Of a DNA stretch of 64,000 nt, positions 8,762-60,235 are shown in pieces (within the stretch, counting starts at the first letter, position 1; every line of letters begins with the position of its first letter). The position numbers and the translations under genes are program-made. Below the pieces are notes generated by a model. That model was not told where the DNA came from, searched no databases, and saw only the letters and a program-made list of their open reading frames with translations. The DNA is from Paraspadella gotoi (Eukaryota; Animalia; Chaetognatha), in contig CM119263.1 in the NCBI GenBank assembly GCA_051294375.1, positions 26,679,130 to 26,743,129 of the forward strand. Reading direction: 5' to 3'.

Positions 8762-8899
8762 TCGATGTCTGTCAACTGTGTCAAGTGGCGGAGACATGAC
8801 GTTCTTATCGATGTCTGTCAACTGTGTCAAGTAGCGGAGACATGACGTTCTTATCGATGTCTGTCAACTGTGTCAAGTGGCGGAGACATGACGTTCGTA
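8762..8899. repeat. 46-bp tandem repeat x3
   Basis: Unit TCGATGTCTGTCAACTGTGTCAAGTGGCGGAGACATGACGTTCTTA starts at 8762, 8808 and 8854. Confidence 0.95.
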
Positions 8900-9248
8900 T
8901 CTTTGTCTCGTCGTCGATAGCTATTTTCAAATTCTCTCTTTCTCTCATATTTTCTTTCATTTGTAGCTTAAGTCAGTTACATTGTAACCATTTCGCTGCT
9001 GTCAGTCGTCCATGCCTTCCCCAGCGGGATTATCCGTTAGGATCATTTTTTCCATATTTCTTCACAGTAGCAGTCAGATTTTAAAATATACTATTTTTTT
9101 GTATCAGGACCATCGCGTGTACTACATATATATTAATATGTGTATTAATATGAAATAAATAAATAATACTATTATTTATTTATTTCATAGCGAATTACGT
9201 CATCTTCGCTTCAGTTCTATATATTTTTTTTTGTAGGAAAGGTCCCTG

Positions 9249-10508: not shown

Positions 10509-11525
10509 TAGTCCGAAAATTTAGACTGGCTTAACAACGACGAAGCTGCCACTAAATATTGCGCCATGAATTTAAAAGAAAGATAAAAAGACATCGACCT
10601 TCCAATCTCGCTTCTCGATCTCACCGTTTCACTCGGCTCAAGATCTGTTTTCGGCGTTTCTCACAAAGCAATCACTACCGAATATCAAGGCGCAACGTGA
10701 ACCCATAAAAGTAGTGTTTTTGGTCTTTAAATCCGAATGGTTCGGACACTATCGACCCGAAGAGAAGGAACGCCAACTCGTAAAACGCATCTTGGGCCGA
10801 AATGGAAAAAAAAGACGAGTTCACTCTCACCTTTCTCTAGTGTTTTTCATCATGGGTTGCGTTCTTGCTTTCTTCTGTTTTTTTTTTCTCTCGAATTTTT
10901 TTTCTCTTTTTTGAGTTATGTCGTTGGCCTAACTTTTTCAATCAATCAATCAATCCATTGGTAGCCCAAAAACCATAACAAACTAACCCAGTCACCCGTT
11001 TCAGACTCAATTCTCCTTCAATTCACCTTCAGCCGTTACAAGTTTATTGGATCCGGGGATTGGGTTTAAATCCTTCTCCTCTCCCGTATGCAACCCGTTT
11101 TGCGGCGATAAAGCGAATTAATGTGATAACCCTGGATGTAGTAAAGCGAGGCCAAGTCCGGGGGGGAGAAGCGAGCGGTCGGCTTTATGGGATCGACCTT
11201 GTCGGGGAGAAGAGGTGGAATAACAGGTGGAAAAAGGTGGTAGAAGTGAAAAATGAGTGACTTACAGGACTAATTAAATTTCAGCTGTGATATTCTTATT
11301 GCTGTTTTGAGAAGCATCGACTTAATTGTAAGGGGGTCATTCACCAAGAAACACAAACTAAATTATTGGTTCAATTCTTATACGCCTCTGAAAGATGGAC
11401 TCATTGGTTCCGGGTCCAGAATTGGCCACTTCCTCTTTCGCCTCCTTCTCTGCCTCCATCTCGATTTCTCCATTAAAACGAGAAACGAGGGCAAATGAAA
11501 GAAGATCATCAAAGGAAAGGGGGTA

Positions 11526-11556
<31 letters not shown>
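10509..11556 (+). repeat. Left arm of ~1.04-kb near-perfect inverted repeat
   Basis: Reverse complement of ~11810-12847. An identical 63-aa ORF appears on opposite strands (11307..11498 + and 11867..12058 -). Differences are mostly single-base indels. Confidence 0.95.
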
Positions 11557-11809: not shown

Positions 11810-11837
<28 letters not shown>

Positions 11838-12847
11838 TGTTTACCCCTTTCTTTGATGATCTTCTTTCATTTGCCCTCGTTTCTCGTTTTAATGGAGAAA
11901 TCGAGATGGAGGCAGAGAAGGAGGCGAAAGAGGAAGTGGCCAATTCTGGACCCGGAACCAATGAGTCCATCTTTCAGAGGCGTATAAGAATTGAACCAAT
12001 AATTTAGTTTGTGTTTCTTGGTGAATGACCCCCTTACAATTAAGTCGATGCTTCTCAAACAGCAATAAGAATATCACAGCTGAAATTTAATTAGTCCTGT
12101 AAGTCACTCATTTTTCACTTCTACCACCTTTTTCCACCTGTTATTCCACCTCTCTCCCCGACAAGGTCGATCCCATAAAGCCGACCGTCGCTTCTCCCCC
12201 CCGGACTTGGCCTCGCTTTACTACATCCAGGGTTATCACATTAATTCGCTTTATCGCCGCAAAACGGTGTGCATACGGGAGAGGAGAAGGATTTAAACCC
12301 AATCCCCGGATCCAATAAACTTGTAACGGCTGAAGGTGAATTGAAGGAGAATTGAGTCTGAAACGGGTGACTGGGTTAGTTTGTTATGGTTTTTGGGCTA
12401 CCAATGGATTGATTGATTGATTGAAAAAGTTAGGCCAACGACATAACTCAAAAAGAGAAAAAAAATTCGAGAGAAAAAAAAAACAGAAGAAAGCAAGAAC
12501 GCAACCCATGATGAAAACACTAGAGAAAGGTGAGAGTGAACTCGTCTTTTTTTTCCATTTCGGCCCAAGATGCGTTTTACGATTGGCGTTCTTTCTCTTC
12601 GGGTCGATAGTGTCCGAACCATTCGGATTTAAAGACCAAAAACACTACTTTTATGGGTTCACGTTGCGCCTTGATATTCGGTAGTGATTGCTTTGTGAGA
12701 AACGCCGAAAACAGATCTTGAGCCGAGTGAAACGGTGAGATCGAGAAGCGAGATTGGAAGGTCGATGTCTTTTTATCTTCTTTTAAATTCATGGCGCAAT
12801 ATTTAGTGGCAGCTTCGTCGTTGTTAAGCCAGTAATTTTCGGGACTA
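11810..12847 (-). repeat. Right arm of ~1.04-kb inverted repeat
   Basis: For example, 12781-12833 is the reverse complement of 10525-10577. The spacer between arms contains a 25-N gap. Confidence 0.95.
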
Positions 12848-42700: not shown

Positions 42701-43344
42701 TTGGGGTTTAATTGAAGTGGGGGGGCAATTAGAAATAAATTAATAAGAAATAAATTATATTTGAGGGAATCGAGCAAAGAGGACAAAAGATCTGAGTGTT
42801 CATTTGACCCTACTTTCTCGTTAGATGAAGAGAAAGCAAGGCGCCAAGCAGAAGGGAGTAAGAGAGAGAGACAAAGAAAGAGATAGAGAGAGAGAGCAAA
42901 GTGCTTTTTTGGAGATAAATCCTTTAGAATCTCGGGTTTTCTCGTCGTCGCCGTTGTCGTCGTCGTCGTCGTCGTCGTCGTATATAGTCCTTCGATTTCG
43001 TTTCTGTTTTTTCTTCTTTTTTTTCTTCTTTCGTCTCAAATTTCGTCCAGGAGTCAAATCTCGGCGCGCGTCGGGCAGACCTGGCTGCCAGTCGGTCAGA
43101 CTGCGCAGAGAAAGTCGGTCAGACTTTGGGGCGAGTATCTATATTAACATCGGATCGAGAAAAAAAGGAAATTTAAAAAAAATCAAATTTTAAATGATTT
43201 TAAAAACAGAAATTTTTCCCTTTGGAAAATTAAATTTCTAAAGTTCTAAAGACGTAAAAAGTGAGGTTTATTAAATTTATTAATCAAATTACTGAAGAGA
43301 CAGTAATTATTGATAAGTGTTAATGACAGAACCGTTCAATATAA

Positions 43345-43418
43345 GCAGTTCCTGAGCTTCGGATCAGGCTGTAACACCATGTTACAGGCGGGTTAAGCGC
43401 CCCGTCCCTCTTAACTGC
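43345..43418 (-). ncRNA. Twister self-cleaving ribozyme, circularly permuted type-P5
   Basis: The minus strand reads GCAGUU AA GAGG GA CGGG GCGCU U|AA CCC GC CUGUAACA UGG UGUUACAG CCUGA UCCG AA GC UCAGG AACUGC. Helices: P5 GCAGUU/AACUGC, P3 CUGUAACA/UGUUACAG, P4 CCUGA/UCAGG with loop UCCG-AA-GC. Pseudoknot T1 is UCCG/CGGG (covaried relative to the usual UCCY/RGGG) and T2 is GC/GC. The catalytic GA after P2' and the N|AA cleavage motif are present; the predicted cut lies between 43395 and 43394. P2 is imperfect (CCC vs GAGG) and P1 is vestigial. Confidence 0.85.
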
Positions 43419-43421
43419 CAG

Positions 43422-43493
43422 ACGACCACCGGGCTAGAACCCCGGACCTTTGGGTTGGGAGGCGAATGACTTGCCTCCGGCACCAATGGCCGC
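43422..43493 (-). pseudogene. tRNA-derived (Gly-CCC-like) Pol III head, not a functional tRNA
   Basis: 72 nt long. Acceptor-like stem GCGGCCA/UGGUCGU, A-box-like TGGTGCCGGAGG, anticodon-loop-like CU-CCC-AA, and T-arm CCGGG-GUUCUAG-CCCGG with B-box-like GGTTCTAGCCC. The anticodon stem does not pair; the D/anticodon region can instead form GGAGGC/GCCUCC. Confidence 0.7.
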
Positions 43494-45147
43494 TGATGAA
43501 CGGTTGGTGGATTTTAGTCCACCATATTACCATCTACAGTACAGTTTCTTATATTTAGCCACTTTATAGAAAAATATTAAAATAACCCGTTGTATTTCCT
43601 TCGCTTCCTTGTTTTCGATATCACCGCTCCCCTTAACCAGCTTCCGTTCAACCGCGTGGCAAGAAACAACAACAACAACAACAAATCAGCCGGCAGTCAA
43701 GTCCAATAAGGAAAGAGAGAGTGAGGCTCTTTCATTCCGAATTTTCACAAATGCCTCTCACGCTTAATTTTTCAAAAGAAGTGATCTTTTTCATTTTCAT
43801 TTTGTGATTTATTTACATAATTTATAAATCATGAGTTATAAAAAACTGTTTTAACTTTTCACTCTCCAAGTTAAGATGAATTTCACCGATGGGAAGCTGT
43901 GAACTTTTATCGCATGAGTGAAAGCCGCCGCAGTTTCACGGTGACCATTTGCTTCAACCTCCTTACTTCTCCTCGCCCTCCTTTCCTCTGCATCATCATC
44001 ATCATCCTCTTCCTCATCCTATTCCTCTTCTTCATCCTCTTCCTCTTCTTCATCCTCTTCCTAACCTCTTCCTCATCCTCTTCTTCTTCCTCCTCTTCCT
44101 CTTTCTCCCTTTTCGCTGTTTTTTAACGAGGGACTTCCTCGAGGCGAGAGACGCAGCTGACGGTAAGTCGAGGCCGACGCGAGGCCGCAGGGTAACGGGT
44201 GGGGTAAGGGAGAGGGGAAAGAGTGAGGTGGGGTAAGGAGTGTGAAGGAAAAAGGGGAAGTAGAAGGAGAAGATTGGTGGCGGGAAAAGGAAAAAGAAAT
44301 AAGATAATGGAGCAAGCTGCGTGCATAGTCCATACAAGAACAAAATGACAAAAAAAAACACAAATATTGTACTGTAAGAATTATATTTCTAAACAGTCGC
44401 AATATGTAAAAAATTTACAGAACACGGTCCTTGGAAGACGTTCGGTGTCATTTGCATCAATAATAAAGAATTGTATTAATTTTTTTACGAATTGATAAAA
44501 TTTTGTTGGAGACCAAGAAAACGTAGTAGTTGGAATAAAATGGAGAATTTTAAGTATCGGCCGCGCCGTTGCCGACAACGAAATAACAACAACAACGACA
44601 ATAAAAATGAGTTAAGAAAAGTGGAAAGTCGGGAGCGAGGAAATAGGTTACGAAGCATCGGAGATAAGATATTCGCCGATAAGGAAAGAGAGAGGGGATT
44701 AGGGAATAGGGTAGGGGAAATTAAAGGGAATGGGTTAGTCTGGGAAAGGTAGAGGGGATTCATTGTGAAAGGTTGGGGAAAGATGCGGACAGCGCTGGCT
44801 GAATTTGACTTACCAGGAAAACTGCGCGGCTTGCTTGTGCTGCAATCGGTGATTCCGTTATTTTAAAGAATGGGGAAAAAAAAACGATGGCGGCTGAAGC
44901 TGGTTTGGGGACTTGAACTGGTGGTTGCGTGACTGCGTTCGACTGAAATTGTGGAAGGTAAGGACGACAGGGTTTTGGGTGAGTCATATGGTAAACAATG
45001 CTTTTAATTCAAATAGTTTTATAGTTCTGTTGAAGGAAAGGAGTAGACTGTGGAGTCGAATTGTACGTTGGGTGTGGGCGTGCGAGAAATGATGAAAGAT
45101 ATCCTTGGATTGAATGGTAAAAAAAAGATTAAAAGTGCAAGTAGCTT

Positions 45148-59872: not shown

Positions 59873-60235
59873 CGAACCTGATTATTCAGAGGGACAAACT
59901 TTGTCCGAACCTGATTATTCAGAGGGACAAACTTTGTCCGAACCTTATTATTCAGAGGAACACACTTTTTCCGAACCTTATTATTCAGAGGGATAAACTT
60001 TGTCCGAACCTTATTATTCAGAGGAACAGACTTTTTTCCGAACCTGAATATTCAAAGGGACAAACTTTGTCCGAACCTGAATATTCAAAGGGACAAACTT
60101 TGTTCGAACCTGATTATTCAGAGGGACAAACTTTGTCCAACCCGAATATTCAAAGGGACAAACCTTGTTCGAACTTGATTATTCAAAGGGACAAACTTTG
60201 TCCGAACTTGATTATTCAGAGAAACAAACTTTGTC
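59873..60235. repeat. 33-bp minisatellite, ~11 copies
   Basis: Unit CCGAACCTGATTATTCAGAGGGACAAACTTTGT, head-to-tail with point variants. Confidence 0.95.

What the first reader, a model, noticed from the sequence alone, without database searches (positions are those of the whole stretch)
43345..43418. Type-P5 twister with covaried T1 pseudoknot, vestigial P1 and bulged P2
All hallmark twister nucleotides line up: N|AA, GC after P2, L4 UCCG-AA-GC, and the catalytic GA. The T1 pair UCCG/CGGG is a compensatory variant of the common UCCY/RGGG, which argues against chance. P1 is reduced to a 5-nt linker (GCGCU), a natural mini-twister-like arrangement. P2 (CCC vs GAGG) looks like a 1-nt deletion from CCUC, so this copy may be attenuated or decayed.
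Basis: partly seen in the sequence, partly recalled or inferred. Interest (0 to 1): 0.8.

Follow-up and report, generated by a model that had tools for sequence, protein, structure and literature searches.

The report
Twister ribozyme in tRNA-bearing solo LTR
A twister-like RNA fold with a shortened stem sits right behind a tRNA look-alike in a young, widely dispersed 234-base repeat that is likely the leftover end (solo LTR) of a miniature retrotransposon, which would make it a twister-driven animal counterpart of plant retrozymes, although cutting is untested.

Summary
The motif is real (minus strand 43418-43345): cleavage-site UAA, catalytic GA, T1, T2, P3, P4 and P5 are in twister order. 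A descriptor finds it once in the window and never in 150 shuffles. Rfam gives no hit. Both pair swaps (T1; L4-closing A-U) keep activity in published rice-twister mutagenesis (0.86, 0.85). The 3-nt P2 and missing P1 are family state, not decay of this copy, and a misfold is predicted to dominate the monomer. The motif lies in a sharp-ended 234-bp repeat (43293-43526) with at least 150 insertion sites, a 4-bp target duplication, TA...CA ends and a tRNA-Gly-like segment just upstream; a related end in a second organism abuts a tRNA-Trp primer site. Best reading: solo LTR of a Helenus-type miniature retrotransposon that works like an LTR retrozyme with a twister. Two published wasp Helenus LTRs carry an unremarked hammerhead in the same slot. 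A palindromic linker replacing P1 may make cleavage need both LTRs. No full-length element, RNA or cleavage was seen. This scan's AI notes already report P1-less P5-type twisters (Naiads) and Helenus solo LTRs on other DNA, separately.

The parts
43293..43526 (-). 234-bp dispersed repeat, probably a solo LTR; starts TA, ends CA on the minus strand
   Evidence: Loose ends pile at 43293 and 43526 in three runs (150/174, 112/134, 33/37 contigs) with unrelated flanks; 9,815 contigs laid in run X1; ends read
43289..43292 (.). left copy of the 4-bp target-site duplication (TTAC on +)
   Evidence: sequence; chance of equal flanking 4-mers about 0.006
43527..43530 (.). right copy of the 4-bp target-site duplication
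   Evidence: sequence
43505..43524 (-). 7-bp hairpin at the 5' end of the element
   Evidence: fold of the whole element
43497..43505 (.). arm of a 9-bp inverted repeat; pairs with 43330-43338 and encloses the tRNA-like and twister domains in the RNA fold
   Evidence: such a repeat arises in 101 of 5,000 shuffles
43330..43338 (.). second arm of the 9-bp inverted repeat
43421..43493 (-). tRNA-Gly(CCC)-like segment: acceptor and T arms intact, anticodon arm broken, B box with one mismatch at 43441-43431, A box degenerate; likely Pol III promoter
   Evidence: ARAGORN lists it only at relaxed threshold (-ps80, 'possible pseudogene'; none at default); B box; family variants 43422 and 43425 turn G.U acceptor pairs into G-C
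43345..43418 (-). type-P5 twister-like fold (P5, short P2, T1, T2, P3, P4/L4; no P1)
43405..43406 (-). catalytic G and following A
   Evidence: aligns with G45-A46 of the rice twister numbering (header of the matrix)
43396..43401 (-). 6-nt self-complementary linker in place of P1
   Evidence: self-duplex -8.3 kcal/mol; 47 of 4,096 hexamers do as well
43394..43395 (-). predicted cleavage site U|A
   Evidence: inferred from twister homology (PMC8501958 section 17)
43356..43363 (-). L4 loop carrying the T1 (CCG) and T2 (GC) partners, closed by A-U

Best explanation
This is a twister-type fold sitting just behind a tRNA-like segment in a 234-bp repeat that is likely the solo LTR of a miniature (Helenus-type) LTR retrotransposon, where it would cut the element's RNA as hammerheads do in plant retrozymes. 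Shown: the fold, the repeat, its ends, its target duplication and the tRNA-like segment. Inferred cycle: RNA polymerase III would start at the tRNA-like segment of the 5' LTR and read on (the minus strand has no run of three or more T). [quoted passage not shown] A host ligase would likely close it into a circle, and a Gypsy-type helper would likely copy it from a tRNA-Trp primer and insert it with 4-bp duplications, giving full, solo-LTR or multimeric copies. A single copy of the ribozyme is predicted to be slow or off (short P2, no P1, competing helix), which would keep the circle intact.
For: Twister order and rarity. Both pair swaps are activity-keeping in the rice twister: T1 swap 0.86 against 0.13 single, L4-closing A-U 0.85 against 0.24 and 0.80 single (PMC5113685 supplement rows). 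P1 is dispensable (PMC5408937). P3 opens with the same five letters as 5 of 7 Schistosoma twisters in Table 1 of PMC8501958. Family variants spare the core: 0 of 24 listed variants lie in 43410-43388; the commonest one inside the fold is in the P3 loop (36-43%), and about 99% of depth differs from this copy at 43350 in a way that keeps the P5 pair as a wobble on the minus strand only. LTR signs: two sharp ends, no tail, 4-bp duplication, a 4-letter spacer in one tandem joint, tRNA-like segment 33 bp inside the end, TA...CA ends as in four wasp Helenus LTRs. In organism B, 1 of 2 contigs at the homologous end continues into a stretch matching the tRNA-Trp primer site of Helenus-2_SyJa and Gypsy-32_NVi in 13 of 14 letters (rough chance 0.001). 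Helenus-2_SyJa and -2_SyUm, also Trp-primed, carry a type III hammerhead directly behind their tRNA-like part (read by eye). Plant retrozyme hammerheads are also predicted in a blocked fold and leave solo LTRs with 4-bp duplications (PMC4918200).
Against: P2 has 3 nt on its 5' strand and only 2 contiguous pairs; the review reports the suggestion that any change in P2 length might disrupt the active site. A helix of 43404-43401 with 43392-43389 is predicted at P 0.99 and lies 7.2 kcal/mol below the native secondary structure; T1 and T2 stacking would return at most about 9 kcal/mol before loop costs. No Rfam twister hit. No two-LTR copy, primer site or polypurine tract was seen in organism A; the primer-site evidence is one low-depth contig of another organism, and the target duplication rests on one copy. 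The A box is degenerate and the B box has a mismatch. A 2-6% variant at 43360 breaks a T1 pair (a CpG site). No fixed-pattern relative with the same fold among 17 matches in prokaryote and metagenome collections and 0 in viral contigs.
Confidence: 0.45

Rival explanations
1. Same solo LTR, but the twister is a dead passenger: an ancestral ribozyme lost P1 and one P2 base in the master element and was copied along, while the element moves by ordinary LTR strand transfer.
For: Short P2, no P1 and a dominant misfold; most Helenus LTRs that I read have no ribozyme and move anyway; a young family shows little variation anywhere, so an unvaried core is weak evidence of selection.
Against: Two separate compensated pairs of an activity-keeping kind, a linker more self-complementary than 99% of hexamers, and a hammerhead in the same slot of other Helenus LTRs.
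Confidence: 0.25
2. Not an LTR but a SINE-like or Penelope-hitch-hiking unit, like the Schistosoma tRNA-plus-hammerhead repeats or animal non-LTR retrozymes: tandem copies are transcribed, cut to monomers by the twister and inserted by a LINE or Penelope-like (for example Naiad) enzyme.
For: tRNA-like part followed by a ribozyme as in Schistosoma (PMC6765202); exact head-to-tail joints in 5 contigs each of runs X1 and X5, and one contig of X9 whose loose end reads like an inverted copy of the right end; unit size within 150-450 bp (PMC7229834); AI notes of this scan report P1-less type-P5 twisters in Naiad repeats (a lead, not verified here).
Against: Both ends are sharp and lie away from the cleavage site and the tRNA start; no tail; no gradient of 5' truncation in the depth profile; unique flanks outnumber tandem joints about 30 to 1; no pile of loose ends at 43394/43395 among the 20 rows shown, 587 not shown. 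Non-LTR retrozymes have longer duplications than 4 bp; Naiads are strongly 5'-truncated (PMC8557442).
Confidence: 0.2
3. The likeness is accidental: a cluster of hairpins, perhaps selected on the plus strand, where the L4 loop reads as a common C(UUCG)G tetraloop.
For: The plus strand folds as well as the minus strand (z -2.83 against -2.26) and has the tetraloop at 43357-43362 and a TATA-like word at 43339-43345; no Rfam hit.
Against: The tetraloop explains six L4 letters only, not UAA, GC, GA, the T1 partner, their spacing or the helix order; wobble-to-pair variants in P5 and in the acceptor stem are compatible only on the minus strand.
Confidence: 0.05
4. A non-autonomous DNA transposon (Helentron-like or a 4-bp-duplication cut-and-paste type) that captured the tRNA-like and twister parts.
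For: Terminal hairpin, sub-terminal 9-bp inverted repeat, head-to-tail joints.
Against: No terminal inverted repeats; the inverted repeat is weak (2% of shuffles); a target duplication is not expected of rolling-circle elements (recalled); primer-site flank in organism B.
Confidence: 0.05

Closest known systems
Twister ribozyme, type P5 (Rfam twister models; Roth et al. 2014, not read; described through PMC5408937 passages and PMC5113685 whole text and supplement rows)
   Same: Order and letters of UAA, GC, L4, GA; T1 and T2 partners; P3, P4 and P5 helices.
   Different: P2 5' strand of 3 nt instead of 4; P1 replaced by a self-complementary hexamer; A-U instead of G-C closing L4; T1 CCG/CGG; no covariance-model hit.
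Helenus (TRIMp3), animal families; Kojima 2024, PMC10886601 (main text parts 1-5 of 6; supplement parts 1 and 6-10 of 11 and two motif searches)
   Same: tRNA-like segment inside a short LTR, 4-bp duplication, solo LTRs, TA...CA ends in some wasp families, Trp primer site; Helenus-2_SyJa and -2_SyUm have a ribozyme motif in the same slot.
   Different: Twister instead of nothing or a hammerhead (0 hits for this L4 and 1 unrelated hit for the canonical L4 in the supplement; line wraps could hide some); internal part and second LTR not seen here; different host.
Plant LTR retrozymes; Cervera et al. 2016, PMC4918200 (passages)
   Same: Ribozyme inside the LTR, blocked in the minimum-energy fold, 4-bp duplications, solo LTRs.
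   Different: Animal-type genome, twister instead of type III hammerhead, tRNA-derived promoter, shorter LTR; circular RNA not shown here.
Schistosoma tRNA-plus-hammerhead repeats and animal non-LTR retrozymes; PMC6765202 (section 11 part 2, passages), PMC7229834 (passages)
   Same: tRNA-like part next to a ribozyme; amphibian hammerheads with a palindromic loop cleave well only as dimers.
   Different: Those are tandem arrays with type I hammerheads and no LTR signs; here dispersed single copies with fixed ends dominate.
Twister variants at the 5' end of Perere-3 LINEs; PMC8501958 (abstract, sections 3, 17, 19)
   Same: Twister serving a retrotransposon, with a weak or variable P1; similar start of P3.
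   Different: Type P1, at the very end of a LINE, with the insertion boundary at the cleavage site; here type P5, internal, boundary about 100 bp away.

Membership tests
Twister ribozyme | N|AA at the cleavage site and catalytic GA | tested here: met
   43395-43393 and 43406-43405
Twister ribozyme | Pseudoknots T1 (3 bp) and T2 (2 bp) can pair | tested here: met
   CCG/CGG and GC/GC; equivalent T1 swap active at 0.86
Twister ribozyme | P4 with invariant G-C pair closing L4 | tested here: not met
   P4 present, pair is A-U; the same swap keeps 0.85 activity in the rice twister
Twister ribozyme | P2 of four base pairs | tested here: not met
   3 nt on the 5' strand, 2 contiguous pairs; no length variant at 2 in 100
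Twister ribozyme | P1 stem | tested here: not met
   6-nt linker; P1 reported dispensable
Twister ribozyme | Match to an Rfam twister model | tested here: not met
   none at gathering score or at E <= 10
Twister ribozyme | Self-cleavage at U|A | not testable with these tools
   needs an assay; runs were contigs only
Helenus (TRIMp3) | tRNA-like sequence inside the LTR with box B | tested here: met
   43493-43421; B box one mismatch
Helenus (TRIMp3) | Box A motifs conserved | tested here: inconclusive
   no good match at the D-arm position among the three best hits
Helenus (TRIMp3) | 4-bp target-site duplication (animals) | tested here: met
   1 of 1 copy with visible flanks; 4-letter spacer in one tandem joint
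Helenus (TRIMp3) | Two LTRs around a primer site and a polypurine tract | tested here: inconclusive
   primer-site-like flank in 1 of 2 contigs of organism B; nothing seen in organism A; no genome held
LTR retrozyme | Active ribozyme in each LTR and circular RNA | not testable with these tools
   no RNA-level data
tRNA-derived SINE | 5' end at the tRNA start and an A-rich or repeat tail | tested here: not met
   33 bp of fixed sequence upstream of the tRNA-like part; sharp 3' end without tail
Non-LTR retrozyme / Penelope-like hitch-hiker | Mostly tandem arrays or 5'-truncated partial tandems, type I hammerhead, long or no duplication | tested here: not met
   5 tandem contigs against 150 and 174 unique junctions in X1; 4-bp duplication

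The most novel reading that the evidence does not exclude
An obligate-dimer twister that counts LTRs. The self-complementary hexamer replacing P1 lets the two ribozyme copies of a full-length transcript (5' and 3' LTR) swap strands and cut together, while solo-LTR transcripts and the ligated circle, which hold one copy, stay uncut. Ribozyme-bearing Pol III TRIMs (twister here, hammerhead in Synergus wasps) would be a so far unrecognised class of animal LTR retrozymes. In the folding model strand swapping gains 11.7 kcal/mol and cuts the gap to the misfold from 7.2 to 3.3 kcal/mol per ribozyme, but does not abolish it.
Probability: 0.2. Interest if true: 0.87.

Novelty: new variant of a known kind. 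Interest (0 to 1): 0.7.

Why it matters
LTR retrozymes are described from plants and with hammerheads; animal retrozymes are described as non-LTR. A twister in a tRNA-promoter LTR, together with the unremarked hammerhead in two published wasp Helenus LTRs, would extend the circle-making retrozyme life cycle to animal LTR elements and show that the ribozyme class is interchangeable. It also supplies a natural, family-wide twister with a 3-nt P2 and no P1. That makes two open structural questions directly testable with a 74-nt RNA: whether P2 length is fixed, and whether twisters can work as dimers as amphibian hammerheads do. No paper joining twister with an LTR, Helenus or a tRNA-derived repeat turned up in my searches (listings only except for the papers named as read); the library lacks most subscription journals and Repbase was not available.

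Tried and rejected
Rfam scans: nothing at gathering score; only chance-level hits at E <= 10, no twister or tRNA model. No whole genome is held, and BLAST finds no second copy in the window, so paralogues could not be aligned and no covariance model was built. Pattern scans for the same variant: 0 matches in viral contigs, 10 in metagenome contigs, 7 in genome contigs; none of the 17 has P4 of 5 bp (best 4 bp, with a broken T1), so I treat them as chance. No RNA holder listed (one run is guessed to be RNA and consists of contigs), which says nothing on expression. Summed contig depth (0.6-1.4 million inside the element against 17-41 in the outer flank bins in X1) is not a copy number and was not used as one. 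Variants rarer than 2 in 100, and whether truncated copies cluster at the cleavage site, remain unseen. My first reading, an ordinary SINE, was dropped because of the fixed 33-bp leader and the tail-less sharp end. A 4-bp T1 was dropped in favour of 3 bp. The idea that dimers fully rescue the fold was not borne out: the swapped misfold (-56.7) still beats the swapped native form (-50.1), and the dimer minimum (-65.0) comes from generic P3 arm exchange. The inverted-repeat and T-arm probes used wrong coordinates and are not evidence. Four canonical L4 8-mers were looked up in the Naiad/Chlamys consensus file (21 places); I recognised no fold like this one by eye, so the Naiad lead is unverified. 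A 12-letter match to Ajax LTRs is about what chance gives and was ignored. Supplements of the bioRxiv preprint could not be seen; parts 2-5 and 11 of the Helenus supplement were searched for motifs but not read.

Full report
Setting. The window looks like gene-poor eukaryotic DNA: rich in GA and GAC microsatellites, 11 gaps of N, no convincing ORF. No genome is held for it. The finding lies on the minus strand.

Reading 43418 to 43345 gives, in type-P5 order: P5 arm, AA, P2 3' strand, catalytic GA, T1 partner, linker, U|AA, P2 5' strand, GC, an 8-bp P3 hairpin, a 5-bp P4 around an 8-nt L4, and the second P5 arm. A descriptor of these features hits once in the window and 0 times in 150 shuffles of the window (both strands) and in 20,000 shuffles of the element; it was written after seeing the motif, so the figure is generous. 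Rfam lists no twister hit at gathering score or at E <= 10. P3 starts with the same five letters as 5 of 7 Schistosoma twisters tabulated in PMC8501958.

Four departures from the consensus. (i) T1 is CCG/CGG; by the crystal-structure review T1 has three Watson-Crick pairs (PMC5408937, passages). In the rice twister the equivalent double change has relative activity 0.86 against 0.13 for the single change. (ii) The pair closing L4 is A-U, not the near-invariant G-C; the equivalent double change gives 0.85 against 0.24 and 0.80 for the singles (PMC5113685 supplement). These are 2-hour end points that hide large rate losses, as the paper says, and the two swaps were not tested together. (iii) There is no P1. 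P1 is reported dispensable. The 6-nt linker is self-complementary (-8.3 kcal/mol; 47 of 4,096 hexamers do as well). (iv) P2 has 3 nt on its 5' strand; the review reports the suggestion that changing P2 length might disrupt the active site. In addition, the T1 partner can pair with the P2 strand and one T2 base; this helix is predicted at P 0.99 in the core and whole element (0.38-0.86 for later starts) and lies 7.2 kcal/mol below the native secondary structure. Activity is therefore open; I put cleavage in some form at about 55%.

The motif is part of a young, dispersed repeat. Laying contigs of four public runs on 43260-43580 shows a unit from 43293 to 43526. In run X1, 9,815 contigs were laid, two thirds of them at 95% identity or more; 150 and 174 contigs leave the element at exactly these two positions into unrelated flanks (112/134 in X5, 33/37 in X9). 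So there are at least 150 insertion sites and probably thousands. Of 24 listed variants, 5 fall in the fold: P3 loop (36-43%), P3 tip (2-6%), the first A after P5 (up to 2%), a CpG site in T1 (2-6%, breaks a pair), and 43350, where about 99% of depth differs from this copy and keeps the P5 pair as a wobble on the minus strand. None falls in 43410-43388. This fits constraint but is weak, because the family is young and contigs are not copies.

Anatomy of the repeat (minus strand): TA start, a 7-bp hairpin, a tRNA-Gly(CCC)-like segment at 43493-43421 (found only at relaxed ARAGORN threshold; B box with one mismatch, poor A box; two acceptor-stem variants turn G.U into G-C), then directly the twister fold, then 52 bp ending in CA. 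The whole unit folds better than all 200 shuffles (z -3.71). It has no run of three T on this strand. The window copy is flanked by TTAC on both sides (chance about 0.006). Five contigs each in X1 and X5 join two copies head to tail, and one X1 contig has four letters between them. In organism B two contigs hold the homologous 3' end; one continues, on the minus strand, into a stretch matching the tRNA-Trp primer site printed for Helenus-2_SyJa and Gypsy-32_NVi in 13 of 14 letters. I assume that the 30 letters shown adjoin the end; rough chance 0.001.

What it is. A fixed leader before the tRNA-like part, two sharp ends, no tail, a 4-bp duplication and TA...CA ends fit a solo LTR of a Helenus-type TRIM: animal Helenus make 4-bp duplications, leave solo LTRs, have LTRs up to 323 bp and are thought to ride on Gypsy elements (PMC10886601); four wasp LTRs in its data file start TA and end CA. 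I put the LTR reading at about 70%. The internal part, polypurine tract and second LTR were not seen in organism A, so membership is unproven. In the same data file, Helenus-2_SyJa and -2_SyUm carry directly behind the tRNA-like part a type III hammerhead: cleavage triplet, 7-bp stem I, CUGAUGA, stem II, GAAA, and 12 complementary letters between loops I and II (read by eye). The paper's text and supplement do not mention it. Two unrelated ribozyme classes in one slot is the best sign that the slot is functional.

How it likely works. By analogy with plant LTR retrozymes (PMC4918200), all steps inferred: Pol III starts in the 5' LTR, reads through the internal part into the 3' LTR, the ribozyme cuts in both LTRs, a host ligase closes the unit (RtcB does so in vitro for animal non-LTR retrozymes, PMC7229834), and a Gypsy helper copies the circle from the Trp primer. 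Plant retrozyme hammerheads are also blocked in the predicted minimum-energy fold. The boldest version is that the palindromic linker makes the two LTR copies cut as a strand-swapped dimer, as amphibian hammerheads with a palindromic loop do, so that single-copy RNAs and the circle are spared. The folding model gives partial support only: swapping gains 11.7 kcal/mol and halves the gap to the misfold, but the swapped misfold still wins by 6.6 kcal/mol before pseudoknots are counted.

Rivals. A dead passenger ribozyme in the same LTR (0.25). A SINE-like or Penelope-mobilised unit (0.2), which the tandem joints and one inverted-looking junction favour, but the fixed ends and the 4-bp duplication do not. 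A plus-strand hairpin cluster whose C(UUCG)G loop mimics L4 (0.05). A DNA transposon (0.05).

Earlier notes of this scan (AI notes, leads only). No look-alike of this element and no note on this genome. P1-less type-P5 twisters in Naiad repeats, one with a dimer proposal, were noted on other DNA; I had written down the dimer idea before seeing them, and a look-up of four L4 words in the published Naiad file did not show me such a fold. Helenus solo LTRs were noted in several other genomes, none with a ribozyme in the lines shown.

Verdict. Real feature; twister-like but not a textbook member (P2, P1, L4-closing pair and Rfam tests not met); most likely the ribozyme module of a tRNA-promoter LTR element. 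New variant of a known kind, interest 0.7.

Noticed in passing
PMC10886601 Data S1, Helenus-2_SyJa-LTR and Helenus-2_SyUm-LTR: Both published wasp Helenus LTRs carry an unannotated type III hammerhead motif with a 12-letter loop-loop complementarity directly behind the tRNA-like part; read by eye, not folded.
   Followed up: partly
window 43339-43345 and 43357-43362 (+ strand): TATA-like word and a C(UUCG)G tetraloop on the plus strand of the element; antisense transcription or a plus-strand role is not excluded.
   Followed up: partly
window 43494, run X9 (table 7): One contig leaves the element after 33 bp into letters that read like an inverted copy of the same end: a fold-back junction or a tiny two-ended derivative.
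   Followed up: no
window 43293-43526 (table 3): Six of the 12 CpG sites show C>T or G>A variants at 2-6%, which suggests CpG methylation of this repeat in the host.
   Followed up: no
window 43293 and 43526, flanks: Majority letters next to the ends, the tandem spacer and the window's duplication mostly have TA in the middle of the 4-mer, hinting at a weak target preference.
   Followed up: no
window 10509-11556 and 11810-12847: 1,050-bp inverted duplicate at 98% identity next to an N gap; possibly an assembly or haplotype artefact.
   Followed up: no
window 32460-33547/35952-37157, 33756-34258/34316-34753, 59873-60235, 8762-8908: Older local duplications (67-72% identity), a tandem array with a period of about 33 bp, and a 46-bp unit in 3.2 copies.
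   Followed up: no
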